Source: a virus
Taxonomy: Duplodnaviria; Heunggongvirae; Uroviricota; Caudoviricetes
Virus record (IMG/VR): IMGVR_UViG_2850808358_000004
Reading direction: 5' to 3' (one strand)
Length of the DNA: 33,562 bases
Both the position numbers and the translations under genes were made by a program. The first letter of the stretch is position 1. The number at the start of each line of letters is the position of its first letter. Below the pieces are notes generated by a model. The model had not been told where the DNA came from, made no database searches, and saw only the letters and a program-made list of their open reading frames with translations. Below, in pieces: positions 3,336-24,818 of the stretch.

Positions 3336-3578
3336 ATGAGAAAACACACAGCAGAACAGGTAAACGAATTTCTGCAGGGATATTACTTCGATAACGAAAT
3401 TAATCCCCGCGCCAGAAAAACACACTTCGAAGTAATGAAGTGCGGAATATTCAGCGTCCGCAACACCCTGTTTTGTTCAAAAGATACGGGAGCCAGCGAG
3501 GACCTTAAAGAACTTAACCGGATGGCGAAACAATTAACGGATGGCATGGTTCCCGAACCCGCAATAATTACGGAGTAA
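3336..3578 (+). CDS. Hypothetical early protein
   Basis: 80-aa ORF with GAGGA RBS. Confidence 0.5.
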   Translation: MRKHTAEQVNEFLQGYYFDNEINPRARKTHFEVMKCGIFSVRNTLFCSKDTGASEDLKELNRMAKQLTDGMVPEPAIITE

Positions 3579-3583
3579 TCACG

Positions 3584-3769
3584 ATGAATTTCAGTTATTC
3601 ATTCAGTGTACCGGAGTCGTTATTTGTTATCACACTGATTGCAGCCGCAATGTTTTTTGCCATCTGCATACTGACACTTATTGATACATGGCGGGAAATA
3701 CGCGACAGACGTCGCCAGAAAAAAAACGGGATGCATACAACGCATTCATTCAGCACAAAGAAGACGTAG
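3584..3769 (+). CDS. Small membrane protein (single TM helix)
   Basis: 61 aa; hydrophobic stretch LFVITLIAAAMFFAICILTLI followed by basic tail RDRRRQKK; GGAGT RBS. Confidence 0.4.
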   Translation: MNFSYSFSVPESLFVITLIAAAMFFAICILTLIDTWREIRDRRRQKKNGMHTTHSFSTKKT

Positions 3770-3865
3770 AGCGTAAAGCACGCCGCCTCTTTAGTTAATT
3801 AACCGGTTTCGTTAATACACCGCTCACGCGGCGGGATTCGCACAATCTGAATAAGGGAAATAAAA

Positions 3866-4288
3866 ATGATTAATCCGACACTCACCCTCAAAGATAAAGC
3901 CCTTGCGGGCGCAATGTTTTTACGCAACTACGCCGCAATGATGGCTGACACTGACAACCCGATGATGGTGCTGTCAGTGGAGCCTCACCTTATCGCCGCA
4001 GACGCAATTGAACAGGTGGTACAGGAAAACACCTGTCTGAGAAATCAGCTTGCCACCCTTCAGACAGCAGCTGACCCGGCAAAGGAAAGTGCTGAACACA
4101 CCTGCCACACCACATTCATCAAAGGGACCCGCGTATGTCTGAAAAACAGTCCGCAGCAACGCGGAACGGTCGTTGACACCCGCACCAGTAGCCCCGCCAT
4201 TGACCGGGTTTTCGTCCGTTTCGATTCCCCCTTCGAGGAAGACCGCTGGGTAAAGACCAGAAACCTGGAAATAACCCCCGACAAATGA
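3866..4288 (+). CDS. Hypothetical early protein
   Basis: 140-aa ORF with AAGGGA RBS. Confidence 0.5.
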   Translation: MINPTLTLKDKALAGAMFLRNYAAMMADTDNPMMVLSVEPHLIAADAIEQVVQENTCLRNQLATLQTAADPAKESAEHTCHTTFIKGTRVCLKNSPQQRGTVVDTRTSSPAIDRVFVRFDSPFEEDRWVKTRNLEITPDK

Positions 4289-4461
4289 AGCTGATTATCC
4301 CTGCGCGACACCGCAAAAACCGGATGAAGCCAGGGGGAAAGCCGGAGCGGGCAGCAAGGGCGGCATACCGTCGCCTGCTGAAGGGGGACCGGTCACACGT
4401 GCGACGGCTGGAGCGGGTACCGCCCGCGTCATCAACGTCATGTACCGTTACCGGCTGTTAA
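4285..4461 (+). CDS. Small arginine-rich protein (58 aa), below the ORF-track size cut-off
   Basis: ATG at 4285 overlaps the upstream stop (ATGA); translation MKLIIPARHRKNRMKPGGKPERAARAAYRRLLKGDRSHVRRLERVPPASSTSCTVTGC read by hand; coding status uncertain. Confidence 0.3.
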   Translation: MKLIIPARHRKNRMKPGGKPERAARAAYRRLLKGDRSHVRRLERVPPASSTSCTVTGC

Positions 4462-4525
4462 GTCTGGACGAAGGCCGGACATGGGTACTGCTTAACCATA
4501 ACGAATACGTGAAGAGGATAAGACG

Positions 4526-5055
4526 ATGTTACAGATGAAATTTAAGCCCTGCTTTATTGACGCATTCCGCAACGGACGCAAGACCACATCCCTTCGCCCG
4601 ACGGGGTTTGATTGCTACCAGGCGGGCCAGGAGTCAGCAGAATATTTTCATGAAGACACCCTGCCCCGCAACATCGTTCTTCCCGATTACAGCGCCGGCG
4701 GTACCCTGGTTTTTGAGGAGGGAACCACATTTACCCGCGCATCAGACTTTGCCGGACTCCTGAAAAGACAGCCCTACCGGCAGTATGACAACATTCATCT
4801 GGTCACAGAAAACAAGAACGGCGAAACCGTGCCGTTCGCCGTGGCCTTCATTGCCGATATCGGTGTAATACAGGGCCGCCAGATAACCGATGAAGCGGCC
4901 GTCAGGGACGGCTTTAACCCTGAAAACCATCCCGCGACGAACTCTTTGCATTCATGCGGGACACCTGCCACATAGAAAACCCCAAAAACGAAACCTACTG
5001 GCGGTACACCTTCACCCACATCGTGATGTTGTCGCAGTGGAGGGCTGACGCATGA
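4526..5055 (+). CDS. ASCH-domain (PUA-like) protein, interrupted by a frameshift near 4930-4945
   Basis: ORF 4526..4975 ends ...DEAAVRDGFNPENHP then the C-terminal part (ELFAFMRDTCHIENPKNETYWRYTFTHIVMLSQWRADA) continues in another frame to the stop at 5053-5055; AGAGGA RBS. Confidence 0.5.
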
Positions 5056-5291
5056 AACCCGCCATTATCTGCATTCTGTGCGAGAGCACTGTCACCGGCG
5101 ACCATTACCGCATCAGGGAACGCCACATCAACCCTGACCGTTCGCTGCTGGACAACATCACCGGCCCGGATGATGAACGCGTGATCTGCCTGAACGACGG
5201 CTCGCAGTTACGCGTGCGCAATATCCGGCGCGAAATCACGCTCGAACCCACCCCATTCACACGCGGGAAAAAACCGGAGAGTGACGCATGA
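5052..5291 (+). CDS. Hypothetical early protein
   Basis: 79 aa, ATGA start-stop overlap with the ASCH gene and with dam. Confidence 0.45.
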   Translation: MKPAIICILCESTVTGDHYRIRERHINPDRSLLDNITGPDDERVICLNDGSQLRVRNIRREITLEPTPFTRGKKPESDA

Positions 5292-6250
5292 AAGGTATTC
5301 TGAACCAGCGCTCACCGCTCAAATGGGCGGGCGGCAAATTCAGTATCATGCCGCAGCTGCGCGAATATTTACCCAAAGCCGCCTGCCTGATCGAACCCTT
5401 CGTGGGCGGTGGCTCTGTCTTCATGAATACGGATTACGACCATTACGTATTGTGTGACAGCAACCCCGCGCTGATTAATTTCTACCAGCAACTGACGACC
5501 AACACCATGGAATTAATGGATCGTGCATGGTCACTCTTTAAGGATGGTGGCACACCGGAAGCCTACAAACGCCATCGCGGGGCATTTAACACCATCGCGC
5601 TGGCCACCGACAGATTACGCGGCGAATCCCTGGAATGGGCAGCGCTGTTTCTGTACCTGAACCGCTATTGCTTTAACGGCCTGCACCGCACCAACCAAAA
5701 AGGCGAATTCAATGTGCCATTCGGCAAACACCGCACACCTTATTTCCCCGATCAGGAAATGCGCCTGTTTGCTGATAAAGCCCGCGAGACACGAACCCGC
5801 TTTATTCACGCGGATTTCCGTACAGCCTTCACAATGCCGGCTGAGATCCGCCGTTTTTCTTCAGTGCACGGCGGTATCGCCATTTACTGCGATCCGCCCT
5901 ACCTGCCGCCGGACGGTAAAGAGGCATTCACTCACTACAACGGCCGGGCATTCACCCGTAAAGACCACCGTGACCTTGCGGCGCTCATGATGAACGCCTG
6001 GCAGCGTTACGGTATCCGCCCGGTGGTCTCCAACAGTGACACCACCGAAACCCGGCAAATCTATTCCTCGTTTGAGCTGCACACCCTGAGCGTTCGCCGC
6101 TCTGTTGCTGCCAGCAGCAGCGCACGCCAGCAGGCAAAAGAGGTAATTGGTGTTTATCCGCCAGCCCATAAAAGCCAGCTCCGGGACGTCAATGTGGGCT
6201 GGCCGTCTCCCCTTCACGCTCCACACCCCACCACGGAGATCATGCAATGA
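5288..6250 (+). CDS. dam: DNA adenine methyltransferase (Dam family N6-adenine MTase)
   Basis: N-terminal KWAGGK SAM-binding motif and DPPY catalytic motif read in translation; 320 aa. Confidence 0.9.
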   Translation: MKGILNQRSPLKWAGGKFSIMPQLREYLPKAACLIEPFVGGGSVFMNTDYDHYVLCDSNPALINFYQQLTTNTMELMDRAWSLFKDGGTPEAYKRHRGAFNTIALATDRLRGESLEWAALFLYLNRYCFNGLHRTNQKGEFNVPFGKHRTPYFPDQEMRLFADKARETRTRFIHADFRTAFTMPAEIRRFSSVHGGIAIYCDPPYLPPDGKEAFTHYNGRAFTRKDHRDLAALMMNAWQRYGIRPVVSNSDTTETRQIYSSFELHTLSVRRSVAASSSARQQAKEVIGVYPPAHKSQLRDVNVGWPSPLHAPHPTTEIMQ

Positions 6251-6558
6251 CCGTTATCTATATCGCCGGCCCCATGACGGGAAAGCCTGATTTCAACCGC
6301 ACCGCCTTCACCATGACAGCGACCCGCCTGAGGATGCAGGGCCATACCGTACTCAACCCCGCAACACTCCCTGACGGGCTGAGATACAGGGACTACATGC
6401 TTATCGGGAGCGCCATGCTGCACTGTGCCGATGTGATTTACCTGCTGGATGGCTGGGAGGACTCGCCGGGGGCAAAAGAGGAACACGCCACCGCCCTGAA
6501 ACTGAATCTGATCATCTCCACACCAGAAAGCCGTAAGGAGGCCAAATCATGTTTCTGA
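6247..6558 (+). CDS. DUF4406-type protein (nucleoside 2-deoxyribosyltransferase-like fold)
   Basis: 103 aa; N-terminal VIYIAGPMTG and DGWEDSPGAKEE motifs typical of this family; ATGA overlap with dam. Confidence 0.6.
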   Translation: MTVIYIAGPMTGKPDFNRTAFTMTATRLRMQGHTVLNPATLPDGLRYRDYMLIGSAMLHCADVIYLLDGWEDSPGAKEEHATALKLNLIISTPESRKEAKSCF

Positions 6559-7102
6559 AACCAATGGGGGACCAGGTAAAGCACCGAAGCACGTCAGTGC
6601 ATGGACACAACAGGAAGACGAACTGCTTATCTCGCTTTATCAGGATCACAGCACATGGCAAATGGCTGAACGACTTCAGCGAACCCGCAGCGCAGTGATG
6701 CACCGGATTCTTTTTTTACGTAATCGCGGGTTGATTGGTCGCAAGAAAAAAGCACCGCTGAGTGCAGAAGCCATCGCCTTTCTCATCAAAAACCGTCACG
6801 CAAAAACCGCACGGGAACTGGCCCGGAAGGCGGGATGCAGCGAGTGCACCGTGAGGTACACACTGCATAAACGGGGTTACAGCCTTAAGAAATGCGGCGA
6901 GAGCCACCATTGCACCAGATACAGCGATCGTCTGGCTGAGCTGGTTACGGAGCTACGCGACAGACGCAACATGACGTTCTGCATAATCGCGAAACACATC
7001 AACATCACGATGCAAATGCACATCAGCGATGATACGGCGTTTCACCTCTACAACCGCCGGACCGCCGCCGACGCCCTGTTGTACGAACTGCTGCCGAACT
7101 GA
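6549..7102 (+). CDS. HTH DNA-binding protein, N-terminus likely displaced by a frameshift in the G5 run at 6566-6570
   Basis: ORF track gives 6662..7102; upstream the same frame stays open and protein-like (SAWTQQEDELLISLYQDHSTWQ) but has no start; ATG 6549 has a near-consensus AAGGAGG RBS but is in a different frame; HTH-like segment TARELARKAGCSECTVRYTLHKRGYS. Confidence 0.45.
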
Positions 7103-7423
7103 GTGATCATCATGCACACACAAAAAAAACCGCTTGCCATGTCGCAATCAGTCAGGTTACATTTCCGCTGCACCTCATAAAACGGGTGCCGGGTTTCGCA
7201 GCCCGCTGACAAACATAGCGCACAACCGCGCCAGCGGTTTTTTTGTGCGTACTGTATCGCCACATCTTTTTCGCACACGAATTATGGTGGGGCGTACGGG
7301 GCCGACTTCGGTCGGGCCGGGTTCTATGTTTGCCGGTACTGCGAACCTCGTACGTCTCGCCACCCACAGTTTCGCAGCTCTGGATGGTGAGTTTTCAAAA
7401 CTTACACACATAGAGGCCACATC

Positions 7424-7654
7424 ATGGCAAACCGCAAACAACAGCGCGCATACGCTGCGCGTCGTCACATCCGGACTGAAATCAACCGCAGACTTTTCCG
7501 CGCATCACGCGTCGCGCAAATCATGCACATCAATATGCTGCATGAACGCAGCCACGCGCTGTCAGACAGCTACTGCGCCGCTGTATTCAGCTATCTGGCG
7601 GATGATCTGCACGAGCTTCAACAGCTCATCCAGCAGCAAAACAAACTCCATTAA
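7424..7654 (+). CDS. Hypothetical small basic protein
   Basis: 76 aa, K/R/Q-rich, AGAGG RBS; preferred over the overlapping 198-aa ORF 7134..7730, whose composition looks non-coding. Confidence 0.4.
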   Translation: MANRKQQRAYAARRHIRTEINRRLFRASRVAQIMHINMLHERSHALSDSYCAAVFSYLADDLHELQQLIQQQNKLH

Positions 7655-7726
7655 TTCCTGTTCCGGGCCTTTCCTGCACCTTGCGGCGGGAGGCCTTCGC
7701 ACATCTTTAACAAAGCGAGGTGCAGC

Positions 7727-8116
7727 ATGATTGACCGTCATGACTTCGTAAAATGGGTGCGCACACAGGACACCCGTCTGGCTCCAAAACTTCAGGCAAT
7801 GTTTGATTTCTATCTCCGTGCCCGCGCCAGCCAGGCTCGCACCACAAAACCAGAGAACGCAGGCCCCCTTTATTTCATCGTGGACGACTGTTACCGCGTG
7901 GACTTCACACCACACGGTCTGGCCCTGTACACCCTGACACCACACGGCGACTCCCTGCTGGCGTATTACAACTCCCCTGCCTCCGTGTTTGCAGCAATGC
8001 TGGCGCATCGCACCGCTGGCGGGTGTGCCTCGCTGAGTGAATACACCACTGAGTTTAACCGTCTTTCTGCCCTCTTCTCGCAGGAATGGCAACGCGTGAC
8101 AGGGTGTCAACCATGA
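7727..8116 (+). CDS. Hypothetical protein immediately upstream of the replication gene
   Basis: 129 aa, GAGGTG RBS, stop overlaps the gpA start. Confidence 0.5.
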   Translation: MIDRHDFVKWVRTQDTRLAPKLQAMFDFYLRARASQARTTKPENAGPLYFIVDDCYRVDFTPHGLALYTLTPHGDSLLAYYNSPASVFAAMLAHRTAGGCASLSEYTTEFNRLSALFSQEWQRVTGCQP

Positions 8117-10605
8117 GTGAATTTACCTGGGACTGGAACGAACCACGGCAGGCCATTGACCCAGCCACATTTGCGAAGTATCAGCCTACGCCTGAAACCC
8201 CGTTGCAACAGGCCATACGCTACTACCAGGAAGCAGATCTGAAAGCACAGGAAGTCAGGGAGGCGGAAGAAGAAGCCTTTTTTGTGCAGTCAGACATGGG
8301 TAAAAAACTCATGGTCGCCCTCGATGAGGACGAACGGCGCGAGAAGGTAACACAAAGCATCATCAGCAAGCGCCAGGCAACAGAACAAGACCCGGTGGCC
8401 CGTGCATTTGTCACACTAAAGGCGCTACCTGTTTATCTGCGTGAACCTCTGAGCCGCCGCCTCTCTTTTTTACGTAAGAAGCAGGAATCTGACCGCCAGA
8501 AAGGCAAAAAGAGTCGACCATCAGAGGGCTACGCGCGCGGAACCCTGCGCAAAATATTCGAACGACTGGACCGCACCGACAGCCGCTGGCTGACACCGGG
8601 TTATCGCGCCCTTGCCGGACGCGAACGCCTGGACGATTTGCTGTACCTGCCGCAGCTTAACAAGCACCAGATACAGACGCTGGGCACCATGACGGCGGCA
8701 ATGTTCAGCAGCTCCTTTGAAACACTCTGTGATGGTTTCGGTGCCAGAGATGGCGAGCTGACCATGGAGGTGGCACTGAAGGCGTATCAGATGCTGGCCC
8801 GCATGGCGCTACACCTGCACGCCATGCCTCCACATTATGACGCGCTGACAACAGACAAAGACCGCAAGAACGAACCGGACACGGAACTGCTGCCGGGCGC
8901 AATCCTTCGCCTGACCTGTGCGGACTGGTGGAAACGCAAACTGTGGCTGTTACGTTGCGAGTGGAGAGAAGAACAACTCCGCGCCGCCTGTCTGGTTTCC
9001 AGAAAAACATCGCCCTATCTGAGCCAGGACGCGTTAAGTGAGTTTCGCGCACAGCGCGAGAAAACACGCGATTTCCTGAAAAGTTTCATGCTGGAAAATG
9101 AAGACGGGTTCACGATTGATCTCGAGACAGTGTATTACGCGGGAGTAAGTAACCCGGTTCACCGTAAGGCAGAAATGATGGCCACCATGAAAGGGGCGGA
9201 ACTTATAGCCGAATCCCGTGGCGACAAAGCGGTGTTTCTGACTGTCACCTGCCCGTCAAAATACCACGCAACAACGGAGAACGGTCATCCGAACCCCAAA
9301 TGGAACGGGGCTACCATGCGCGATTCCAGTGATTATCTGGTTAACACTTTTTTTAAAGCCGTTCGTAACAGACTGGACCGCAAGGGCCTGCGCTGGTATG
9401 GCATCCGCACGGTGGAGCCTCACCATGACGGCACGGTGCACTGGCATATGATGGTCTTTGCACATCCTGAAGAAATCGACAGCATCGTGACCATCGCCCG
9501 CGATATTGCCATTCGTGAAGACCGCCACGAGCTGGGCGATGACATAACTCCGCGCTTTAAGGCGGAGTACGTCGACGGTTCGAAAGGTACGCCGACCAGC
9601 TATATCGCCACCTACATCGGAAAGAACCTGGACAGCCACGCCGTGGATGGCATTGACCCGAAAACAGGCAAACCGCGCATCGACGACGAATCAGGAAAGA
9701 CGATGGCAGAAAGCGTGGAACGCGCCATCGGCTGGGCGCGCCTTCACCGGGTCCGCCAGTTCCAGTTCTTTGGCATCCCCTCCCGTCAGGTATGGCGTGA
9801 ACTGCGCCGCCTTGCCAGCCAGATGGCACGCAACCCGGAAGGCCCGCAACGGCTGAAGGATGACGCAATGGATGCGGTTCTTGCTGCCGCTGATGCCGGG
9901 TGTTTTGCCACCTACATAGAGAAACAGGGCGGCGTACTTGTTCCACGTAAGGACTACCTGATTCGCACCGCCTACGACCTCGCAGATGAGCTGAACGATT
10001 ACGGCGAACAGAGCGTACAGATTTACGGGATCTGGTCGCCACTCATCGGGGAATCCTCCCGTGTGTGCACGCATCCGGACAACTGGAAGCTGGTAAGACG
10101 TAAACCGGAAGCGGAAGACAGCGCCCGCGAAAATGGTTTTGACCTTCAGGGCGGCCCTGCCGCCCCTTGGACTCGTGGCAATAACTGTCCCGGTGACGAA
10201 AAAACAGCCGGAACCGGCACAGAAAACAGGCAGCGTGGGTCGCGGCTGACGCTTCCGGAAAGCGGCCTGGCGCACTGGTTGCAGACGTTAACCCGTCACG
10301 AGCGGAAACAGCTCATCAGACAGCTTAAAAATCAGCCGCCCACCACGGATACCGGACAAAATAACACCAGACCAGCATCAGACACCCCTGTCAGGGTGGA
10401 GGTTGTCGTGCCTGTCGACACCACGACCATCGCACAAATCACCCGCGAACTCGACGCGCTGGGTGTGCAGCTGCCTGACGCAGCCATTATTTCCGTGAGT
10501 AACGGTGCCCGCGTTCGCCCGGGCGACGGGCGTATCGCGTACTGGAGCGCCACAACCCGCCGTATCGTCATCACACAGGAGTCGTCAGCGGAGGTAAGAT
10601 CATGA
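8113..10605 (+). CDS. Replication initiation endonuclease, P2 gpA family (rolling-circle HUH initiator)
   Basis: HUH-type motif HHDGTVHWHMMVF and paired tyrosines in TSYIATYIGKN; start taken at ATG 8113 (ATGA overlap with upstream stop) rather than 8086 from the ORF track. Confidence 0.9.
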   Translation: MSEFTWDWNEPRQAIDPATFAKYQPTPETPLQQAIRYYQEADLKAQEVREAEEEAFFVQSDMGKKLMVALDEDERREKVTQSIISKRQATEQDPVARAFVTLKALPVYLREPLSRRLSFLRKKQESDRQKGKKSRPSEGYARGTLRKIFERLDRTDSRWLTPGYRALAGRERLDDLLYLPQLNKHQIQTLGTMTAAMFSSSFETLCDGFGARDGELTMEVALKAYQMLARMALHLHAMPPHYDALTTDKDRKNEPDTELLPGAILRLTCADWWKRKLWLLRCEWREEQLRAACLVSRKTSPYLSQDALSEFRAQREKTRDFLKSFMLENEDGFTIDLETVYYAGVSNPVHRKAEMMATMKGAELIAESRGDKAVFLTVTCPSKYHATTENGHPNPKWNGATMRDSSDYLVNTFFKAVRNRLDRKGLRWYGIRTVEPHHDGTVHWHMMVFAHPEEIDSIVTIARDIAIREDRHELGDDITPRFKAEYVDGSKGTPTSYIATYIGKNLDSHAVDGIDPKTGKPRIDDESGKTMAESVERAIGWARLHRVRQFQFFGIPSRQVWRELRRLASQMARNPEGPQRLKDDAMDAVLAAADAGCFATYIEKQGGVLVPRKDYLIRTAYDLADELNDYGEQSVQIYGIWSPLIGESSRVCTHPDNWKLVRRKPEAEDSARENGFDLQGGPAAPWTRGNNCPGDEKTAGTGTENRQRGSRLTLPESGLAHWLQTLTRHERKQLIRQLKNQPPTTDTGQNNTRPASDTPVRVEVVVPVDTTTIAQITRELDALGVQLPDAAIISVSNGARVRPGDGRIAYWSATTRRIVITQESSAEVRS

Positions 10606-11033
10606 CGCGATTTCACTGCACCATGCAGCGTCAGCAGTTCGACGCCGTTATGCGCCAGCGCACGCCAGCCATGACACTGAGAGGCGTAGCCACAAGACCA
10701 CAGCCCGGGGACGAACTGGAAATCACGGTGGCCAGCCCCGATCGCACCACCACAACCACCATCACCGACATACTTAACAGGCGACCGGGCAGTGAATATC
10801 AGAGCTGGACCATTGCCGTTCGCCCACGCCGTTCGCCGGAAGAACCGGAGCCGCTCACCCCGGCCGGAAAAATCATGCAGAAGTACCACGAAGAGCAGGC
10901 CCGCAAACACAATGTCGCGCTGGCCAGAACACTGACTGCCGTCAATCGCAAGGCCGCACTGGCGCGAAGGGTCTTTTCATCGCAGCACCCTTCATTCGCC
11001 AGACCGGCACAACACAGGAGAGATCCACAATGA
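10602..11033 (+). CDS. Hypothetical protein
   Basis: 143 aa, ATGA overlap with gpA stop. Confidence 0.45.
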   Translation: MTRFHCTMQRQQFDAVMRQRTPAMTLRGVATRPQPGDELEITVASPDRTTTTTITDILNRRPGSEYQSWTIAVRPRRSPEEPEPLTPAGKIMQKYHEEQARKHNVALARTLTAVNRKAALARRVFSSQHPSFARPAQHRRDPQ

Positions 11034-11278
11034 GAGAGCAATTACCAGACACCGTGCCAGTACAGGAAATCAAAGAAAATATCAGGCAACAACTTCACGG
11101 ATTTTATATTACTTATGATTTGTGGCTGAAAAACGGAGCAAATCCAGACGGAATATTTTCGCGAAACTGTGGTTTATGCGCCAGCCTCTGGGATTATCTC
11201 GAATTAACGGGTGCTGATAAAGAAGCCGCACTGGAGCTATTGCACATTGATTTCAGAAATGCCGGGCGAACCGCATAG
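11030..11278 (+). CDS. Hypothetical protein, AT-rich (possible moron)
   Basis: 82 aa, ATGA overlap with upstream gene; lower GC than flanks. Confidence 0.4.
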   Translation: MREQLPDTVPVQEIKENIRQQLHGFYITYDLWLKNGANPDGIFSRNCGLCASLWDYLELTGADKEAALELLHIDFRNAGRTA

Positions 11279-11659: not shown

Positions 11660-12714
11660 TTATTTTTCATCAGCCAGCGCAGACACCACATTTTCCACAT
11701 CTTCCAGCGTAAAATTAAGGTGTAACGACGGGGGGATTTCGGGATCGCTGTTCACAGCCTGCATGAATTTACGGCAGACAGGTGTCACTTCATCCCGTCC
11801 ATAGGTTGTCCTTGCCTTATCGGGATCGCCAAGTCCGCTCGCATTTTGCGGGATAATACCGGCAAGACCAGCCGGAAAGCGGTGCGCCGTAAGAACATCC
11901 TGAGCGCTGATATTCTTCACATTTGAAAACTCATCTTTTTGCTGAATATCCCCAACCGGAATAATTTTAATCCCGTCCGGTTGCCCTTTTGGGATACTGA
12001 TAAACATGTTACGGAAATTCCCAAGCCCGTTACCGCTCTCTATTTTTTTACGTATAGCTTCTTCAGCCTCAACAGACATATTCGGGTCGGACGCGTACAT
12101 GATGAACCCCATATGCGCACCGTTGTGATAGTAGCGACGTCTGAAAATGGTCGCCTCACTGTTCAGTAACGCTGAATGAATACCACCGATATAATCAGGC
12201 AGTCCATAAATCTGCTGTCGCGGATCATGCATACGTAAAAACACAACATCAGACGGCGAATAGACCAGCGGCTCGCCCTCCTGTAACACGATAAAATCAA
12301 GTTGCTTGCTGCGACGCAGATACAAAGACGGTAATGGTGCCAGCGCCACCACCCGTCCCCACCCGTTACGGACCTTCAGAATGGCCACATCACCAAACAG
12401 CAGGTAGTCAAAGACAGCCATTTCCATCTGATCGGTCGTCAGTCCACCCCCCTGGTAGCTGGCACACACCATATTTTTGCGTGCATACAGTACGCCGCCA
12501 TGCTGGGCGTTAAGGTTCGGCAACTGCGCGAGCGCAAGTCTGTCTATTGGTAGTGTCCAGTAGTTGTAGCTACCGTTATACCAGACGTTGATGTATTCCG
12601 TGCCGGTAGTCAGTATCGGTTCCGGCTCCCAAAAGTGATAATATTGCCGCGTCCGGGAGTAAAATTTTCTGTCTGTGCCCGTTTACGCAGGCGTGCGCTT
12701 TTACGTTTACTCAT
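11660..12714 (-). CDS. Portal protein (P2 gpQ family), frameshift near 12620-12630
   Basis: ORF 11660..12523 contains QQIYGLPDY...LNSEATIFRRRYYHNGAHMGFIMY as in P2 gpQ; N-terminus MSKRKSARLRKRAQTENF from ATG 12714 is in a different frame and terminates; joining frames at a T4/G3 run restores ...IITFGEPEPILTTGTEYINVWYNG... Confidence 0.85.
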
Positions 12715-19398: not shown

Positions 19399-20523
19399 AT
19401 GACGTTTCCACAGGTCACAATTAATCAGCTCAACACCCACAGCGGAAGCAAGCGTGGGATCGCCTGCACCCTGCTGATGGTGGGCGAGCATACAAAAGCC
19501 ATTCTCCCGACACCGGTTACAGCACAAACCGATCTTGACTCGCTGTTAGGAACAAAGGATTCATTGTTACGCAGTAACGTGCAGGCGTTTCTGGATAATG
19601 CCGGACAAAATGCCATGATCTGGCTGGCAACCGTGCAGACACCCCAGCCTTCTGGTCAGACCCGAACGTGGGCTGATGTGGTTATGGATGCACAGGCCAC
19701 CCTCTCGGTGGAAGGCGTTGTCGTTGTTCGCGCTAACGCCTCAGGTAACGATATCGACAAAGCGCAGCAACTGCGCAGCGAACTCAATAACACCTTCCAG
19801 CGCTGGACATGGTTTATCCTGGCTGTTCGCGGCTGCGGAACAGGCGAGAAGTGGTCAGAATACGTCACCGTCATGACCGGACTACAGAAAGGCATTGCCG
19901 CTTACGCGGTGCAGCTTACCCCGATGCTGTTCGGCAATGAACCGGGGATACTGGCCGGTCGCCTTTGCAATCCATCAGTGACGATTGCTGATTCCCCCGC
20001 CCGTGTTGCAACCGGCGCACTGGTCAATATGGGCCGCAACGATAAACCGCAGGACAGCGACAAGCGCGAACTGGACATTGCCACCATCAGGGCCCTGAAC
20101 AGGGCGCGTTTCAGCGTACCAACGTGGTATCCCGACTACGAAGGTTACTACTGGGCCGACGGCGTCACGCTCGATGTGGACGGTGGCGATTATCAGGCTA
20201 TCGAATATCTGCGCGTTGCCGATGAAATGGCCCGTCAGGTGCGTTTGCTGGCTATCCCAAAAATCGCCAATCGCTCACTGAACTCCACCCCGGCAAGTGT
20301 GGCCGCGCACCAACAGCTTTTCGCGAAGCCCATGCGCGACGGCGCAAAGAGCCTGAAAATCAACGGCACGGTATTCCCTGGCCTTTGCATGTCACCGCAC
20401 GACGGCGACGTAAAAATCTCATGGCCGGAAAAAGACAAAGTGCAGATTGCGATCGTGGTTCGCCCGTATAACTGCCCGAAAGAAATCACCATCAGCATCA
20501 TGCTGGACGAAAGCGGAGAGTAA
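19399..20523 (+). CDS. Putative tail sheath protein
   Basis: 374 aa, immediately followed by a 153-aa tube-sized gene and upstream of chaperone/tape measure; assignment by size and order, not by recognised motif. Confidence 0.45.
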   Translation: MTFPQVTINQLNTHSGSKRGIACTLLMVGEHTKAILPTPVTAQTDLDSLLGTKDSLLRSNVQAFLDNAGQNAMIWLATVQTPQPSGQTRTWADVVMDAQATLSVEGVVVVRANASGNDIDKAQQLRSELNNTFQRWTWFILAVRGCGTGEKWSEYVTVMTGLQKGIAAYAVQLTPMLFGNEPGILAGRLCNPSVTIADSPARVATGALVNMGRNDKPQDSDKRELDIATIRALNRARFSVPTWYPDYEGYYWADGVTLDVDGGDYQAIEYLRVADEMARQVRLLAIPKIANRSLNSTPASVAAHQQLFAKPMRDGAKSLKINGTVFPGLCMSPHDGDVKISWPEKDKVQIAIVVRPYNCPKEITISIMLDESGE

Positions 20524-20526
20524 CCC

Positions 20527-20988
20527 ATGAACACCGAACGCATCAGTGGTATGAGCTTTGACACGTCATTTAATGGCCGCATCGTTCACGTAAAAACCGC
20601 CACCCTTGATATTACCGACAACACCAAAGCCATTCAGGAGCGCGGTGTACCTGATGGCTGGGTACGCGGCGACGTGGAAGCCGGCGGTGAAATTGAACTG
20701 GATACCGTTAACTTCCAGCTTCTTGGTGAAGCCGCGCGTGAAGCAGGGAGCTGGCGCGACATCGAAGAAGCCGACTTTCTCTTCTTTGCCCGTGCAGCAA
20801 AGACAGAACTCAGGGTGGAAGCCTTTGGTTGCAAACTGCTGATCAGTAACCTGCTGAATATCGACAGCAAGGGCGGTGACAACATAAGCCATAAAATCAA
20901 ATTTATGGTGACTTCGCCGGAGTTCGTCAAAATTGACGGTGTTCCGGTTCTCAGCGCCACCGATGTTCGGGACATCATGAACCAATAG
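20527..20988 (+). CDS. Putative tail tube protein
   Basis: 153 aa, follows sheath-like gene; by synteny. Confidence 0.4.
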   Translation: MNTERISGMSFDTSFNGRIVHVKTATLDITDNTKAIQERGVPDGWVRGDVEAGGEIELDTVNFQLLGEAAREAGSWRDIEEADFLFFARAAKTELRVEAFGCKLLISNLLNIDSKGGDNISHKIKFMVTSPEFVKIDGVPVLSATDVRDIMNQ

Positions 20989-20996: not shown

Positions 20997-21335
20997 ATGC
21001 AAAGCACCCCCCACAACTGGAGCGACTGGCTGGCGATAATCAAAGACTGGTTACGTGGTGATATCCCTCTTGACAGTCTGCTGATGACTGCCGTCATTGC
21101 AGCACTCAGAGTGTTTTACACAGGCCGCAGCTGGCGTCGTCTTTTGCTTGAGGTGCCGTTGTGTTGCCTGCTGGCCGTGGCGGCATTCACCCTCATTAAG
21201 CCGGTCCCCGTCGCATGGCTGACCGAAGACTGGCGCGTCGGTATCGGTGCCGCAATTGGCCTTATTGGTGTTGAACATATCCGGGCACTGGGTGTGTTCA
21301 TCACAAAGAAATTTGCAGGGAAAAGTGACGAATGA
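20997..21335 (+). CDS. Holin (three predicted TM segments)
   Basis: 112 aa with hydrophobic segments LLMTAVIAALRVFYTG, LLLEVPLCCLLAVAAFTLI, VGIGAAIGLIGV and charged C-terminus; directly upstream of the lysozyme. Confidence 0.6.
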   Translation: MQSTPHNWSDWLAIIKDWLRGDIPLDSLLMTAVIAALRVFYTGRSWRRLLLEVPLCCLLAVAAFTLIKPVPVAWLTEDWRVGIGAAIGLIGVEHIRALGVFITKKFAGKSDE

Positions 21336-21775
21336 AAATTTCAGACAACGGGCTGGCCGCACTTAAACGCGAAGAAAACTGCAAACTGACCGCTTACCCC
21401 GATCCGCGCGGCGTATGGACCATTGGTACAGGTCACACAGGAAAGGTTGATGGTGTCGCAGTTCACAAAGGCATGACCATCACCCAGGACACCGCCGACA
21501 GACTGCTACGCGACGATCTGTCATGGGTGGAGCACTGCATCGCTGAACGGGTAACAGTTCCGCTGAACCAGAGTCAGTATGACGCGTTGTGTAGCCTGAT
21601 TTTCAATATCGGCGCTGACGCTTTTATCGGTTCCACCGTTCGCCGTCAGTTAAACGCCGGCAACTACACCGCCGCCGCTGATGCTTTCCTGAAATGGAGC
21701 CGCGCAGGCAGTAACCCGACAATTCTGGCCCCGCGTCGCGGACGTGAGCGGGCAATGTTTCTGGGACAGAGGTAA
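21332..21775 (+). CDS. Endolysin, GH24 phage lysozyme (muramidase)
   Basis: Catalytic-triad-like E ... D ... T spacing in KREENCKLTAYPDPRGVWTIGTGHTG; 147 aa. Confidence 0.85.
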   Translation: MKISDNGLAALKREENCKLTAYPDPRGVWTIGTGHTGKVDGVAVHKGMTITQDTADRLLRDDLSWVEHCIAERVTVPLNQSQYDALCSLIFNIGADAFIGSTVRRQLNAGNYTAAADAFLKWSRAGSNPTILAPRRGRERAMFLGQR

Positions 21776-21781
21776 GGCCAC

Positions 21782-22246
21782 ATGAAACGCGCAACACTCG
21801 CCTTTATCGTCTTCATGGTCGTCGCCGTGGCCGTGCTCGGCTTCACAGCTGACTACTGGCACAACCGCTTCACCAGGGCAGAAAAAGCCCGCCAGAAAGC
21901 CGTAAATCTTGCCGACACCCGACAGCAGACCATTGACGACATGACACTGCGTCAGCGCCAGAACGCCGCGCTTGATGCGAAATACACAAAGGAGCTCGCC
22001 AATGCAAAAGCTGAATCCGAAAAGTTACGCGCCGATCTTGCTTCTGGCCGTCGCCGGTTGCAGCTCCACGCCGTCTGTATGCCCGCCGCCACGCGTGATA
22101 CCACCGCCACCGGCTCAACTGATGCAACCGCCGCCCGACTTACTCCGGACGCTGAACGGGATTATCAGCATCTCAGAGCCGAAGCGAAAGCCGTCGTTGC
22201 ACAAGTGAACGGCCTGCAACAGTACATTACTGAACAATGTCATTAA
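21782..22246 (+). CDS. i-spanin (Rz-like)
   Basis: N-terminal TM anchor LAFIVFMVVAVAVLGF followed by charged coiled-coil region; contains the embedded Rz1 frame. Confidence 0.65.
   Translation: MKRATLAFIVFMVVAVAVLGFTADYWHNRFTRAEKARQKAVNLADTRQQTIDDMTLRQRQNAALDAKYTKELANAKAESEKLRADLASGRRRLQLHAVCMPAATRDTTATGSTDATAARLTPDAERDYQHLRAEAKAVVAQVNGLQQYITEQCH
22002..22208 (+). CDS. o-spanin (Rz1-like lipoprotein) embedded in the +1 frame of the i-spanin gene
   Basis: MQKLNPKSYAPILLLAVAGCSS lipobox signal peptide, proline-rich mature part; AAGGAG RBS 7 nt upstream of ATG 22002. Confidence 0.6.
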   Translation: MQKLNPKSYAPILLLAVAGCSSTPSVCPPPRVIPPPPAQLMQPPPDLLRTLNGIISISEPKRKPSLHK

Positions 22247-22276
22247 AAAATGGCACCACTCACCGGGGAAAATAGC

Positions 22277-22549
22277 ATGAAAGACGAAAATACCACCATC
22301 ATCACCCTGACCGTCGCAGGCGAGGACATTCGCTTCGCCCCGACCGAAGCTGTCTACAACAAGTTCGTGAATGAAATAACGATGGATAACAAGGTGGCGC
22401 CAGCCAAAAACTACCTGATGCGCTGTGTACACCCGGAAGACAAAGAGAAACTGGAGAAGCTCATTCACCGCCCGGGAGCAGCCCTTCAGATGGCAGCAAA
22501 ACTCAATGAAGATTTTGCCGTCAATCTGGATATCACCGTAAAAAAATAA
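22277..22549 (+). CDS. Tail assembly chaperone (P2 gpE / lambda gpG analogue); a -1 frameshift product would extend to 22737
   Basis: Small acidic protein directly upstream of the tape measure gene; ends at an A7 run; alternative start ATG 22250 in the ORF track. Confidence 0.55.
   Translation: MKDENTTIITLTVAGEDIRFAPTEAVYNKFVNEITMDNKVAPAKNYLMRCVHPEDKEKLEKLIHRPGAALQMAAKLNEDFAVNLDITVKK
22540..22546 (+). other. Candidate programmed -1 ribosomal frameshift slippery heptamer A_AAA_AAA
   Basis: Seven consecutive A at the last two codons of the chaperone; the -1 frame stays open for 63 codons (KKIKAALSGIERNGYAQYLVLRRHWLPDGEDTPEDIAAAVWLDNRYFENMSIAVNNGIARAFKGG) and stops at TAA 22735-22737, overlapping the tape measure ATG. 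Confidence 0.5.
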
Positions 22550-22736
22550 AGGCGGCACTGTCCGGCATTGAGCGCAACGGCTACGCGCAATATCTGGTAT
22601 TACGCCGCCACTGGCTACCGGATGGCGAGGACACACCGGAAGACATTGCCGCTGCGGTCTGGCTGGACAACCGTTATTTCGAAAACATGAGTATTGCCGT
22701 CAATAACGGCATTGCGAGAGCATTTAAAGGTGGGTA

Positions 22737-24818
22737 ATGGCTGCTGAACTTGATTTTACGCTAAGTCTGGTTGATAAGCTGACGAGACCCTTAAAACAGG
22801 CGCAATCGGCTGTGACCGGATTTGCTGACAAGGCAACAGCCGACTTTAAACGTCTCGGTTTTGGTGTGGCCGGGTTATGGGGGGCTGCTCAGGGAATAAA
22901 AGGACTGGTCAACCCCGCCCGCGACATGGAAGCCGCGCTGGCCGAAGTCAGCTCGCTGGATGTGGCAAATAAAACACTCGATCAGCTGCGTAAAACTTCA
23001 CAGACGTTTGCCATTAACTACGGCGAAAGCGCCAGCAATTTCGTCCGCAGCGCCTACGATATCCAGTCCGCCATCGCAGGACTTCAGGGTGACGAACTGC
23101 CAAAATTTACTGAAGCATCCGCCATTCTCGCCAAAGCCACCAAATCAGACACGGCCACCATTACTAACTATATGGGCACCATGTACGGTGTTTTTAAAAA
23201 TACCGCAGAGAAGATGGGGCGCACGCAGTGGGTTGAACAAATTGCCGGGCAGACCGCAACCGCCGTTCAGGTGTTCAAAACTACCGGTAATGAAATGTCT
23301 GCTGCCTTTACTGCGCTGGGTGCCAACGCGCAGGCAATGAAGGTATCTGCCGCTGAACAGTTCGCCGTACTGGGACAGCTCCAGTCCACCATGTCAGGCA
23401 GCGAGGCGGGAACCAAATATAAATCATTCCTGGCGGGGATTGGGAATGCGCAAAAAGTGCTGGGGCTGAACTTTACCAACCGGGACGGCAGTGCCAGAAG
23501 CATTACCGGTATCATCGACCTGATTAAAGGAAAGTTTGGCGATCTGTCAAAAGTGGCAGATGCAGACCTGCTGAAAAAAGCCTTTGGCAGCGATGAAGCG
23601 GTGTCCATGATTAAACTACTGGCCGGAGATGTTGACGGGCTGAAACGGAACATCAATACATTAGGTAACATCAAAGGCATGGATAAAGCCATCGAAATGG
23701 CGAAAAAGATGGTTGACCCGTGGGATCAGGTTAATTCTTTACTGGAGCAGGTTCGCGTCAGCATTGGTCTGCGGCTCGATCCCGTCTTTGCCCCGTTCCT
23801 GCAAAAAATCATCACCGGCGGGAAAGCCTTCATGAAATGGCTGGATACGTTCCCCAATATTGCCCGCTGGCTGGGATATATCACTGCAATGACCCTCGCC
23901 TTTGCCGCAGCAGGGGCGCTTGCCAGTATCACGATGGGGGCCTTCGGCTTTATCATGACCGGGCTCAGCGGAATTGCTGGCGTGCTGAAAGGCGCATGGA
24001 AAGGACTAATCTTCACCCTGGATTTATTACGCCCCTCCCTGCTTTCAACCCGTCTTGGCCTGATGGGGCTATGGATTCAGGAAAAAGCCGTCTGGGTGTG
24101 GTCAAAGCTGGTCGCTCTTTGGGCAGGGATCTGTAAAGCAGCGATCGTAGCCTGGAACGTAGTGTTACGTGCGGGCGCGGTTGCAATGCGCCTGTGGGGC
24201 GTGGCGACGGCATTCGCAGGCGGTGCGCTTCAACTCCTGATAAGTCCCATAACCCTGATTATTCTCGCCATTGCCGCACTTGCCGTAGGGATCTGTCTGG
24301 CTATCAAATACTGGGACAGTATTAAAGCCGCCATCATGGACACGGAAGCTTTCAGTGCCCTGCTAAAAGTCATTAACGCTGTGGTGGGCTGGTTTGATGA
24401 TGCATGGAACAGCATTAAAGCCGGATGGGACAATCTGACGAACTGGTTTAAAAATTTCTCGCTGGCCGACACATTCGGCAATATCACAGCTGGAATTGGC
24501 AAGCTCTTTGACGGCATATGGGATTCCATTAAGAGCGCCTTTACCGGGACATGGAACTGGATAGCAGAGAAGCTCAACAAAATCCCCGGTGTCAATATCA
24601 GCACCGCACAACAGACCGTCGCACCGACACCCGCCCCGGAGCTTATCACTGGCAACCGTAGCGCCGCCATCCAGGGCGGGCCGGTAAGTCACCAGATAAG
24701 CAACAACCGGGGCGACAAAGTCACCAATAACAACGTTAAGCAGGATATCACACTGCACGTTGACACCCTGGCGACACCGGGACAACTGGCGGAATACAGC
24801 GAACTGGCAGCGGGGTGA
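22737..24818 (+). CDS. Tail tape measure protein
   Basis: 693 aa; alpha-helical N-terminal half and hydrophobic/Gly-Ala-Trp-rich C-terminal segments typical of tape measure proteins; preceded by chaperone with frameshift site. Confidence 0.85.
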   Translation: MAAELDFTLSLVDKLTRPLKQAQSAVTGFADKATADFKRLGFGVAGLWGAAQGIKGLVNPARDMEAALAEVSSLDVANKTLDQLRKTSQTFAINYGESASNFVRSAYDIQSAIAGLQGDELPKFTEASAILAKATKSDTATITNYMGTMYGVFKNTAEKMGRTQWVEQIAGQTATAVQVFKTTGNEMSAAFTALGANAQAMKVSAAEQFAVLGQLQSTMSGSEAGTKYKSFLAGIGNAQKVLGLNFTNRDGSARSITGIIDLIKGKFGDLSKVADADLLKKAFGSDEAVSMIKLLAGDVDGLKRNINTLGNIKGMDKAIEMAKKMVDPWDQVNSLLEQVRVSIGLRLDPVFAPFLQKIITGGKAFMKWLDTFPNIARWLGYITAMTLAFAAAGALASITMGAFGFIMTGLSGIAGVLKGAWKGLIFTLDLLRPSLLSTRLGLMGLWIQEKAVWVWSKLVALWAGICKAAIVAWNVVLRAGAVAMRLWGVATAFAGGALQLLISPITLIILAIAALAVGICLAIKYWDSIKAAIMDTEAFSALLKVINAVVGWFDDAWNSIKAGWDNLTNWFKNFSLADTFGNITAGIGKLFDGIWDSIKSAFTGTWNWIAEKLNKIPGVNISTAQQTVAPTPAPELITGNRSAAIQGGPVSHQISNNRGDKVTNNNVKQDITLHVDTLATPGQLAEYSELAAG

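What the first reader, a model, noticed from the sequence alone, without database searches (positions are those of the whole stretch)
22277..22737. Candidate programmed -1 ribosomal frameshift (A7 slippery site) giving an extended tail chaperone that ends at the tape measure start
The chaperone ORF ends in A_AAA_AAA immediately before its stop. The -1 frame stays open for 63 codons and terminates at a TAA overlapping the tape measure ATG. This is the conserved chaperone frameshift arrangement of tailed phages, but in this indel-prone sequence it must be distinguished from an assembly error.
Basis: partly seen in the sequence, partly recalled or inferred. Interest (0 to 1): 0.45.

Follow-up and report, generated by a model that had tools for sequence, protein, structure and literature searches.

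The report
Tail chaperone frameshift site, HP1-like prophage
This is an ordinary example of the ribosome-slipping trick that tailed phages use to make a short and a long tail-assembly chaperone from one gene; it sits in an E. coli prophage where public annotation misses it.

Summary
The chaperone ORF (22277..22549) ends GTA AAA AAA TAA. The -1 frame reads 63 further codons and stops at a TAA (22735-37) that overlaps the tape-measure ATG (22737).

The A7 run is real, although this window does carry homopolymer indel errors elsewhere. Six complete E. coli genomes are 100% identical across 22200-22800, and eight more distant Salmonella, Klebsiella and Edwardsiella relatives also have A7.

The 0-frame part is Pfam Phage_TAC_10 (4.5e-31). 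The -1 part is Pfam DUF6890 (6e-24).

In 269 distinct related loci, including HP1, K139, phiO18P, ESSI-2, ACA1 and phi3, the second part lies in the -1 frame in all but one broken locus. An A_AAA_AAN heptamer in 0-frame register sits at the same place in 262 of them. The extension shows coding-type third-position variation from its first codon and has no conserved start codon.

Best explanation: a programmed -1 ribosomal frameshift that yields a 153-aa G-T-type fusion. I found no supported downstream stimulatory structure in this clade; the adjacent stop codon may help. A minor contribution from transcriptional slippage at A7 cannot be excluded.

This is a known kind of feature. The instance is unannotated: PGAP calls a spurious 30-aa "DUF6890 family protein" instead. 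Interest is low.

The parts
22277..22549 (+). Tail assembly chaperone gene (the 'G'-type product, 90 aa). An alternative upstream ATG lies at 22250.
   Evidence: ORF. Pfam PF10963 Phage_TAC_10, E 4.5e-31. PGAP annotates 22277..22549 as a putative phage tail assembly chaperone.
22540..22546 (+). Slippery heptamer A_AAA_AAA in 0-frame register (GT-A AAA AAA).
   Evidence: Sequence. The same position holds A_AAA_AAA, A_AAA_AAC or A_AAA_AAG in 262 of 269 distinct related loci. The first A is supplied by GTA, CTA, GCA or ATA codons, with GTA in 253 loci.
22547..22549 (+). 0-frame stop codon TAA directly 3' of the heptamer. Possible 'shifty stop' contribution.
   Evidence: The stop is adjacent to the heptamer in all 25 A7 loci of this type and all 129 A_AAA_AAC loci. 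Its role in slippage is inferred, not shown.
22546..22737 (+). -1 frame extension ('T'-type domain, 63 codons plus TAA). Read only after the shift.
   Evidence: Translation. Pfam PF21830 DUF6890, E 6e-24. phrog_7050, 4.9e-24. Codon-position entropy 32/22/75.5, and 9.6/8.4/22 for the first 18 codons. No conserved start codon.
22645..22737 (+). PGAP's 30-aa 'DUF6890 family protein'. This is most likely a truncated miscall of the extension, not a separate gene.
   Evidence: Annotation. Conservation extends 33 codons upstream of this ATG to the heptamer. The Met is replaced in many relatives, e.g. ENTRI, EYHRI, EYTGI.
22737..24818 (+). Tape measure protein gene. Its ATG overlaps the TAA of the extension.
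   Evidence: ORF. Pfam PF10145 PhageMin_Tail, 1.7e-28.
22585..22605 (+). Weak candidate hairpin (GCGCAAUA-N5-UAUUACGC) lying 38 nt 3' of the heptamer. Probably not a stimulator.
   Evidence: RNAalifold on 12 A7-clade sequences. 91.7% of cells paired, 2 covarying pairs, 16-48 of 500 shuffles reach the observed values. The window itself has a C.A mismatch in the stem. It lies too far downstream for a classical stimulator.
22551..22609 (+). Long-range GGCGGC (22551-56) : GCCGCC (22604-09) pairing seen in the single-sequence fold. Not supported.
   Evidence: MFE fold z-score -0.87. No covariation and only 73.6% paired across the clade.

Best explanation
Most ribosomes translating the chaperone mRNA terminate at TAA 22547-49 and release the 90-aa chaperone. 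A minority slip back one base on A_AAA_AAA (22540-46). This can happen in two ways: the two tRNA-Lys in the P and A sites re-pair on AAA/AAA, or the P-site tRNA-Lys slips while the stop codon waits in the A site. Either way the next codon read is AUA (22546-48), and 63 further codons are translated to TAA 22735-37.

The result is a 153-aa fusion, ...DITVKK-IKAALSG...FKGG, consisting of a Phage_TAC_10 domain followed by a DUF6890 domain. By analogy with lambda G/GT and P2 E/E+E', both products act as tail assembly chaperones around the tape measure protein, in a fixed ratio, and neither ends up in the virion.

Shown here: the sequence anatomy, the reality of A7, the homology of both halves, and family-wide conservation of frame, heptamer and position.

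Inferred: that slippage is ribosomal, its efficiency, and the function of the two products.
For: Anatomy.

A7 is genuine. Six complete E. coli genomes are 100% identical over 22200-22800. Identical IMG/VR contigs carry it. Salmonella, Klebsiella oxytoca and Edwardsiella tarda relatives, some from Illumina-run (Logan) assemblies, all read GTA AAA AAA TAA/TAG.

Both halves are recognised families: PF10963 at 4.5e-31 and PF21830 at 6e-24.

Gene context is sheath, tube, lysis cassette, chaperone, tape measure and baseplate, the same as in HP1.

In 94 distinct close loci the heptamer|stop combination is AAAAAAC|stop in 86, AAAAAAA|TAA in 7 and AAAGAAA|TAA in 1. In 70 loci the -1 frame opens only 10 nt before the 0-frame stop, which pins the shift to the heptamer.

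In 269 distinct loci across Peduoviridae of the HP1 group, 262 have A_AAA_AAN and 3 have G_GGA_AAA in register. All but one broken locus have the T part in the -1 frame.

A tblastn of the fused protein against 50,697 phage records found 76 records. Each matched as two pieces covering at least 90% of the query.

Third-position variation dominates in the -1 frame from the first codon after the heptamer.

The codon supplying the first A is GTA in 253 loci. Where the amino acid differs it is CTA, GCA or ATA. This is selection on the nucleotide.

No start codon is conserved in the -1 frame.

A_AAA_AAA gives measurable -1 frameshifting in E. coli: 0.41% alone and 24.8% with the IS3 pseudoknot. The IS600 A_AAA_AAA site is listed as a proven case (PMC4066793 Tables S3 and S4).

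A homologue, Pseudoalteromonas phage ACA1, is deposited with a joined CDS described as a 'projected programmed frameshift analogous to that in phage P2'.
Against: There is no experimental evidence for the fusion protein in this prophage or, as far as I could find, in any member of this protein family.

No supported stimulatory RNA structure lies at the canonical 5-9 nt spacing in the A7 clade, and no upstream SD-like element was seen by reading. The unstimulated efficiency measured for this heptamer is only about 0.4%, well below the roughly 3% (30:1) of lambda G/GT (PMC5009743).

The product of ribosomal slippage is identical to the product of inserting one A into the transcript, so sequence alone cannot separate the two mechanisms.
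Confidence: 0.85

Rival explanations
1. Transcriptional slippage. RNA polymerase occasionally adds one A while copying the A7 run, and the resulting A8 mRNA encodes the same G-T fusion by standard translation.
For: The product would be identical (reasoning). A7 and T7 runs are under-represented in all frames of E. coli genes, which Sharma et al. attribute partly to transcriptional slippage (PMC4066793). The A7 clade lacks a supported RNA stimulator.
Against: 203 of 269 related loci have only six A's (A6C or A6G) at the same site. From general knowledge, slippage by E. coli RNA polymerase becomes substantial only at runs of about 9 or more. The A7 heptamer responds about 60-fold to a downstream pseudoknot in reporters (0.41% to 24.8%), which is a ribosomal property. 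The ESSI-2-like sister clade keeps a hairpin 8 nt 3' of the heptamer, the hallmark of ribosomal -1 frameshifting.
Confidence: 0.08
2. Assembly or sequencing error. The true run is A8 (one fused ORF) or A6, and the overlap is an artefact of an indel-prone assembly.
For: The window does carry homopolymer +/-1 errors relative to a complete genome. They break the portal, terminase, capsid and gpM genes, and one A-run at 7122 is A8 against A7 in the reference.
Against: 22200-22800 is 100% identical to six complete genomes. All 25 distinct loci of this type have exactly A7 plus a stop, and 129 more have A6C plus a stop. No homologue has a simple in-frame fusion at this site.
Confidence: 0.01
3. Two independent genes. 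The DUF6890 ORF is translated from its own start, as PGAP annotates it (a 30-aa product from ATG 22645).
For: PGAP and other pipelines call separate small ORFs of 30-59 aa with differing starts.
Against: Protein-level conservation and third-position variation begin at the heptamer, 33 codons upstream of that ATG. 113 of 264 loci have no ATG, GTG or TTG from the opening of the -1 frame to 18 codons past the heptamer, and where one is present its position varies. The Met at 22645 is not conserved. The starts called for the DUF6890 proteins differ from record to record.
Confidence: 0.04
4. Decayed prophage. The arrangement is a relic with no current function in this strain.
For: Some relatives are clearly degraded: L027 has a broken G, P0038 from Shigella boydii is degenerate, and P0007 carries an internal deletion.
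Against: In the reference genome all structural genes of this prophage are intact. The site is identical in six genomes. The apparent breaks in the window are homopolymer errors.
Confidence: 0.02

Closest known systems
Tail chaperone frameshift of HP1-group Peduoviridae (Haemophilus HP1 orf26, Vibrio K139 orf30, Aeromonas phiO18P, Cronobacter ESSI-2 / Evevirus, Pseudoalteromonas ACA1 gp36/gp36a)
   Same: Both halves are homologous: tblastn finds two pieces in two frames, covering at least 90% of the fused query, in 76 phage records. The -1 frame relation is the same, the heptamer sits at the same position after V/L-K, the extension ends at the tape-measure start, and the lysis cassette lies between the tube and chaperone genes. 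ACA1 is deposited with a joined 'projected programmed frameshift' CDS.
   Different: The last base of the heptamer and the stop position vary. HP1, K139, phiO18P, YenM324 and ESSI-2 use A_AAA_AAC plus an adjacent stop. phi3 uses A_AAA_AAG, and ACA1 uses A_AAA_AAA, each with the stop 7 codons later. The window uses A_AAA_AAA plus an adjacent stop. ESSI-2-like phages have a conserved hairpin 8 nt downstream that the window lacks.
Phage P2 gpE / gpE+E' (Christie et al. 2002, PMID 12426340; cited from memory and from the ACA1 record, as the paper is not held)
   Same: A contractile-tailed peduovirus in which the chaperone gene lies directly upstream of the tape measure gene and a -1 frameshift near the 3' end extends the product to the start of the tape measure gene. 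It works the same way.
   Different: No sequence-family match was found: the Pfam scan returned only Phage_TAC_10, DUF6848 and DUF6890. From memory, P2 uses a T-rich heptamer (T_TTT_TTG), and its tube gene is directly adjacent with no lysis cassette in between.
Phage lambda G / G-T (Levin et al. 1993; Xu et al. 2004, 2013, 2014, as summarised in PMC5009743)
   Same: A low-level -1 frameshift near the end of the chaperone gene gives a fusion whose extra domain is encoded between the chaperone and tape measure genes. The ratio matters for tail assembly, neither product is in the virion, and the arrangement is conserved despite low sequence similarity.
   Different: Lambda is a siphovirus. From memory, its heptamer is G_GGA_AAG. 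There is no sequence homology. Here the 0-frame stop abuts the heptamer.
IS600 / IS1 transposase frameshift sites in E. coli
   Same: They use the same heptamers: A_AAA_AAA in IS600 and A_AAA_AAC in IS1. Both are listed as proven -1 frameshift sites in E. coli (PMC4066793 Table S4).
   Different: The proteins and their purpose are unrelated (the transposase-to-regulator ratio). IS600 is reported to have a stimulatory stem-loop, and none is supported here.

Membership tests
G/GT-type programmed -1 frameshift of tailed-phage tail assembly chaperones (Xu, Hendrix and Duda 2004) | Two overlapping ORFs lie between the major tail/tube gene and the tape measure gene, immediately upstream of the tape measure gene. 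| tested here: met
   Order: sheath 19399-20523, tube 20527-20988, holin/endolysin/Rz 20997-22246, chaperone 22277-22549, extension to 22737, tape measure 22737-24818. A lysis cassette is interposed after the tube gene, as in HP1.
G/GT-type programmed -1 frameshift of tailed-phage tail assembly chaperones (Xu, Hendrix and Duda 2004) | The second ORF is in the -1 frame relative to the first and has no start codon of its own. | tested here: met
   The -1 relation holds in 106 of 108 loci, with the other two examined: L007 is -1 but has a variant motif, and L027 is broken. It also holds in all but one of 269 distinct loci. No conserved ATG, GTG or TTG was found.
G/GT-type programmed -1 frameshift of tailed-phage tail assembly chaperones (Xu, Hendrix and Duda 2004) | A slippery X_XXY_YYZ heptamer lies in 0-frame register inside the overlap. 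| tested here: met
   A_AAA_AAA at 22540-46. It is conserved as A_AAA_AAN in 262 of 269 loci.
G/GT-type programmed -1 frameshift of tailed-phage tail assembly chaperones (Xu, Hendrix and Duda 2004) | The extension is under protein-coding selection and is conserved in homologues. | tested here: met
   Pfam DUF6890 at 6e-24. Codon-position entropy 32/22/75.5. Alignments.
G/GT-type programmed -1 frameshift of tailed-phage tail assembly chaperones (Xu, Hendrix and Duda 2004) | A frameshift fusion protein is made at a low fixed ratio and is required for tail assembly. | not testable with these tools
   This needs a western blot or mass spectrometry, plus genetics.
Pfam PF10963 Phage_TAC_10 | Score above the curated gathering threshold (25.7 bits). 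| tested here: met
   107.3 bits, E 4.5e-31, profile positions 1-82 of 82.
Pfam PF21830 DUF6890 | Score above the curated gathering threshold (23.6 bits). | tested here: met
   84 bits, E 6e-24, profile positions 1-44 of 44, on the -1 frame translation.
P2 gpE / E+E' sequence family | Detectable sequence similarity to the P2 E or E' protein families. | tested here: not met
   The Pfam scan at E up to 0.1 returned only Phage_TAC_10, DUF6848 and DUF6890. The site works like P2 E/E+E' but is not a sequence-level member.
-1 frameshift sites with a 3' stimulatory RNA structure | A stable hairpin or pseudoknot starts about 5-9 nt 3' of the heptamer and is supported by conservation or covariation. 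| tested here: not met
   In the window clade the fold z-score is -0.87, the long-range stem shows no covariation, and the only semi-conserved hairpin lies 38 nt downstream. The feature is met in the ESSI-2-like sister clade.
Programmed transcriptional slippage sites | A long homopolymer (about 9 or more A/T, from general knowledge) is conserved as a run irrespective of codon register. | tested here: not met
   The run is A7 here and A6 in 203 of 269 relatives.

The most novel reading that the evidence does not exclude
The stop codon abutting the heptamer may be a functional part of the signal. It is invariably present with the weak A_AAA_AAC heptamer (129 of 129 loci) and with this A7 type (25 loci). 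It is absent with the strong A_AAA_AAG heptamer (0 of 74 loci, where the stop is 7 codons later). On this reading the HP1-group chaperones would use a termination pause (a 'shifty stop' with P-site or E/P-site slippage) in place of, or alongside, an RNA structure, and the G:GT ratio would become sensitive to release-factor activity. The A7 variant might add a small transcriptional-slippage component. The correlation could equally be plain phylogenetic inertia between clades.
Probability: 0.25. Interest if true: 0.35.

Novelty: new member of a known kind. Interest (0 to 1): 0.2.

Why it matters
The main value is for annotation. RefSeq/PGAP and most phage records split this locus into a chaperone plus a tiny "DUF6890 family protein" or "hypothetical protein" with arbitrary start codons. 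Both Pfam (DUF6890) and PHROGs (phrog_7050) list the second part as of unknown function.

The comparative data here show that DUF6890 is the frameshift-encoded "T" domain of the tail assembly chaperone in HP1-group peduoviruses. It should be annotated as a joined CDS with ribosomal slippage.

The family-wide table of heptamer type against stop position, together with the covarying hairpin in ESSI-2-like phages, gives a small natural series for asking how weak heptamers reach a useful frameshift rate. Nothing here changes the current understanding of recoding.

Tried and rejected
- Megablast of 21700-23300 against the phage collection found nothing. Distant blastn and tblastn were needed.
- RNAalifold on 25 diverse sequences gave no family-wide consensus structure downstream of the heptamer, with 0 predicted pairs.
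- In the single-sequence fold of 22540-22640, the GGCGGC:GCCGCC stem is not better than shuffles (z -0.87) and shows no covariation, so I rejected it as a stimulator.
- The A7-clade hairpin at 22585-22605 has weak support, lies 38 nt downstream and is mismatched in the window. I do not accept it as a stimulator.
- I looked for an upstream SD-like stimulator by eye and saw none. This was not tested formally.
- A PDB sequence search with the fused protein gave no meaningful hit.
- The AlphaFold single-sequence model is confident only for the G domain (pLDDT 75-93 over residues 10-80) and poor for the T domain (below 50), so no conclusion can be drawn about the T fold. The Foldseek PDB search gave one credible hit, 3fgx_A, an uncharacterised Bacillus protein, which I did not pursue.
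- Christie et al. 2002 (PMID 12426340) is not held. Full-text searches for an explicit description of the HP1-group frameshift found none; the only explicit statement is the ACA1 GenBank note.
- I considered whether the A-run or the open -1 frame is statistically unusual by itself. Neither is.
Full report
**Observation.** The + strand ORF 22250/22277..22549 ends ...ATC ACC GTA AAA AAA TAA. The A7 run is 22540-22546 and the stop is 22547-22549. Reading from 22546 in the -1 frame gives 63 sense codons (IKAALSGIERNGYAQYLVLRRHWLPDGEDTPEDIAAAVWLDNRYFENMSIAVNNGIARAFKGG) and then a TAA at 22735-37. That TAA shares its last base with the ATG of the 693-aa ORF 22737..24818. The -1 frame is already open from 22510. 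The description is therefore accurate.

Neither element is remarkable alone. A7/T7 occurs 19 times in the window against 9.2 expected. A -1 frame open for at least 63 codons follows 19 of 51 long + strand open frames in this gene-dense window.

The window was aligned to E. coli CFSAN029787 (NZ_CP011416.1). Over 11266-33561 it is 99.6% identical but differs by single-base homopolymer indels at 12628, 13653, 15947, 16082, 17543 and 32630. One A-run at 7122 is A8 against A7 in the reference. These indels split the portal, large terminase and gpM reading frames and garble part of the capsid gene, all of which are intact in the reference. The window's assembly is therefore error-prone at homopolymers.

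At the site in question, however, 22200-22800 is 100% identical to six complete E. coli genomes and to IMG/VR contigs. Eight more distant relatives, with 61-92% chaperone identity, all read GTA AAA AAA TAA or TAG. They come from Salmonella, Klebsiella oxytoca and Edwardsiella tarda, and some were assembled from public sequencing runs. An assembly error is excluded.

**What the two reading frames encode.** The 0-frame product is Pfam PF10963 Phage_TAC_10 (E 4.5e-31, full-length match). The -1 frame translation is Pfam PF21830 DUF6890 (E 6e-24, full-length match). The next gene is a tape measure protein (PF10145, 1.7e-28). Upstream lie a sheath gene (DUF2586), an HP1 Orf24-type tube gene, a holin, an endolysin and an Rz spanin. 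PHROGs places both halves in families of unknown function (phrog_1214 and phrog_7050).

The prophage has a P2-type head module and an HP1-type tail module. Relatives in the phage collection are classified in Peduoviridae.

**Comparative evidence.** A tblastn of the conceptual fusion against 50,697 phage records found 76 records. Every one matched as two pieces in two frames covering at least 90% of the query. They include HP1, HP2, K139, Kappa, phiO18P, ESSI-2, the Evevirus phages, F108, phi3 and ACA1.

In 108 loci fetched with the chaperone, the DUF6890 part is in the -1 frame in all except L027, whose chaperone is broken. Among 94 distinct sequences the motif before the 0-frame stop is:
- AAAAAAC in 86;
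- AAAAAAA in 7;
- AAAGAAA in 1.

After adding loci found with the HP1, phi3 and ACA1 chaperones there are 269 distinct loci:

| Motif | Position of 0-frame stop | Loci |
|---|---|---|
| A_AAA_AAC | adjacent | 129 |
| A_AAA_AAG | 7 codons later | 74 |
| A_AAA_AAA | 7 codons later | 32 |
| A_AAA_AAA | adjacent (the window's type) | 25 |
| A_AAA_AAA | 12 codons later | 2 |
| G_GGA_AAA | adjacent | 3 |
| A_AAG_AAA | – | 3 |
| broken locus | – | 1 |

Four further observations support a shift at the heptamer:
- In 70 loci the -1 frame opens only 10 nt before the 0-frame stop (AGT AAA AAA C), so the shift can only occur on the heptamer.
- The codon that supplies the first A is GTA in 253 loci. Where the residue differs it is CTA, GCA or ATA, so the nucleotide is kept and not the amino acid.
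- Column entropy of the extension by codon position in the -1 frame is 32/22/75.5. For the first 18 codons after the heptamer it is 9.6/8.4/22. The frame is therefore under coding selection from its first codon.
- No ATG, GTG or TTG is conserved in the -1 frame. 113 of 264 loci have none from the opening of the frame to 18 codons past the heptamer. The small DUF6890 proteins in databases start at different, arbitrary positions.

PGAP's 30-aa protein at 22645..22737 is therefore best read as a truncated miscall.

**Mechanism.** The most likely mechanism is a -1 ribosomal frameshift on A_AAA_AAA, giving a 153-aa fusion. Reporter data for E. coli (Sharma et al. 2014, PMC4066793 Table S3) give these -1 frameshift frequencies:

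| Heptamer | No stimulator | IS911 stimulators | IS3 pseudoknot |
|---|---|---|---|
| AAAAAAA | 0.41% | 0.82% | 24.8% |
| AAAAAAC | 0.16% | 0.19% | 0.74% |
| AAAAAAG | 0.29% | 4.3% | 39% |

The same paper lists IS600 (A_AAA_AAA) and IS1 (A_AAA_AAC) as proven cases. Lambda G:GT is about 30:1, and P2-type phages shift 2- to 3-fold more often (PMC5009743). The bare heptamer would therefore give a rather low ratio unless something stimulates it.

I looked for a stimulator. There is no family-wide structure. In the window the fold of 22540-22640 is not better than shuffles (z -0.87). Its GGCGGC:GCCGCC stem does not covary. The only semi-conserved hairpin of the A7 clade (22585-22605) lies 38 nt downstream and is mismatched in the window.

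The ESSI-2/Evevirus-like clade, which uses the weak A_AAA_AAC heptamer, is different. It keeps an 8-bp hairpin (CGAGUCCR-N15-YGGACUCG) starting 8 nt after the heptamer. One pair covaries (GC 27, AU 17, GU 2), and three other pairs show one-sided changes to G.U. The slid-register controls fall to 7-36% paired against 88% for the proposed structure.

The stop codon abutting the heptamer is the other candidate stimulator. It is always present with A_AAA_AAC and never with A_AAA_AAG. Slow decoding of a stop in the A site is a known promoter of P-site slippage (the 'shifty stops' of Weiss et al. 1987, cited in PMC5009743). This is inference, and the correlation is confounded by phylogeny.

**Rivals.**
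- Transcriptional slippage would give the same protein. It is unlikely to be the main route because most relatives have only six A's at the site, and a sister clade has a ribosome-type stimulator. A minor contribution at A7 cannot be excluded.
- Independent translation of DUF6890 is contradicted by conservation upstream of every candidate start.
- Assembly error is excluded.
- Relic status does not fit the intact prophage in the reference genome.

**Comparison with what is known.** This is the conserved tail-assembly-chaperone frameshift of long-tailed phages, as in lambda G/GT and P2 E/E+E' (PMC5009743). It belongs by sequence to the HP1-group chaperone family (Phage_TAC_10 plus DUF6890). It works like P2 E/E+E', but no sequence-family link to P2 gpE was detected.

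Within its own family the frameshift has been projected at least once. The GenBank record of Pseudoalteromonas phage ACA1 carries a joined CDS with a note citing the P2 precedent. The accompanying paper does not discuss it, and the other records inspected annotate two separate genes or leave the extension unannotated. I found no experimental demonstration for any member.

**Verdict.** This is a new, unannotated member of a well-known kind. The useful by-products are:
- identification of DUF6890/phrog_7050 as the frameshift-encoded domain;
- a family-wide catalogue of heptamer and stop configurations;
- a covarying stimulatory hairpin in the ESSI-2-like clade.

Interest is low (0.2).

Noticed in passing
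window 12628, 13653, 15947, 16082, 17543, 32630, 7122, 4931, 6566: The window has single-base homopolymer indels relative to E. coli CFSAN029787. They split the portal, large terminase and gpM genes and scramble part of the major capsid gene, all intact in the reference. They look like long-read assembly errors in the window's source.
   Followed up: yes
window 21972-22208 (inside Rz 21782-22246): An embedded +1-frame ORF carries a lipoprotein signal (..PILLLAVAGCSS..). This is the typical Rz1 o-spanin nested in the Rz gene. It is not annotated in the RefSeq record.
   Followed up: no
window 22645-22737: PGAP annotates a 30-aa 'DUF6890 family protein' from an internal ATG. Other records-62 aa versions with different starts. 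All appear to be fragments of the frameshift extension.
   Followed up: yes
L002:3201-3231 and 46 other ESSI-2/Evevirus-like loci: A conserved 8-bp hairpin, CGAGUCCR-N15-YGGACUCG, starts 8 nt after A_AAA_AAC. It has a G-C to A-U compensatory pair: an Arg-to-Gln change on the 5' arm is matched by a synonymous AAC-to-AAT change on the 3' arm.
   Followed up: yes
269 distinct related loci (L002-L314): Heptamer type tracks the position of the 0-frame stop. With A_AAA_AAC the stop is always adjacent (129 loci). With A_AAA_AAG it is always 7 codons later (74 loci). A_AAA_AAA occurs in both arrangements (25 adjacent, 32 later). This could be functional (a stop compensating for a weak heptamer) or simply clade structure.
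   Followed up: partly
L007:2740-2749, L235, L237: Three loci have GTA AAG AAA instead of a canonical heptamer. This leaves only the A_AAG tetramer, the best tetramer motif in E. coli according to PMC4066793, at the same position.
   Followed up: no
window 3373-11270 versus L124:1-7900; L124:7901-11262: The early and replication region is only 95.7% identical to the reference prophage. The window also lacks a roughly 3.4-kb insert carrying IS600, an HTH-domain gene and a PIN-domain gene. The early region is mosaic next to a near-identical late region.
   Followed up: no
P0007 (Salmonella Montevideo), P0038 (Shigella boydii), L027: These are degraded copies. One is a 96-aa protein joining the chaperone N-terminus to the DUF6890 C-terminus through an internal deletion. 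The other two are chaperone genes broken by frameshifts.
   Followed up: no
model m59329dc289e1, residues 10-80: The chaperone domain model (two strands plus four helices, pLDDT 75-93) has one credible PDB neighbour, 3fgx_A, an uncharacterised Bacillus stearothermophilus protein (Foldseek probability 1.0, TM 0.60).
   Followed up: no
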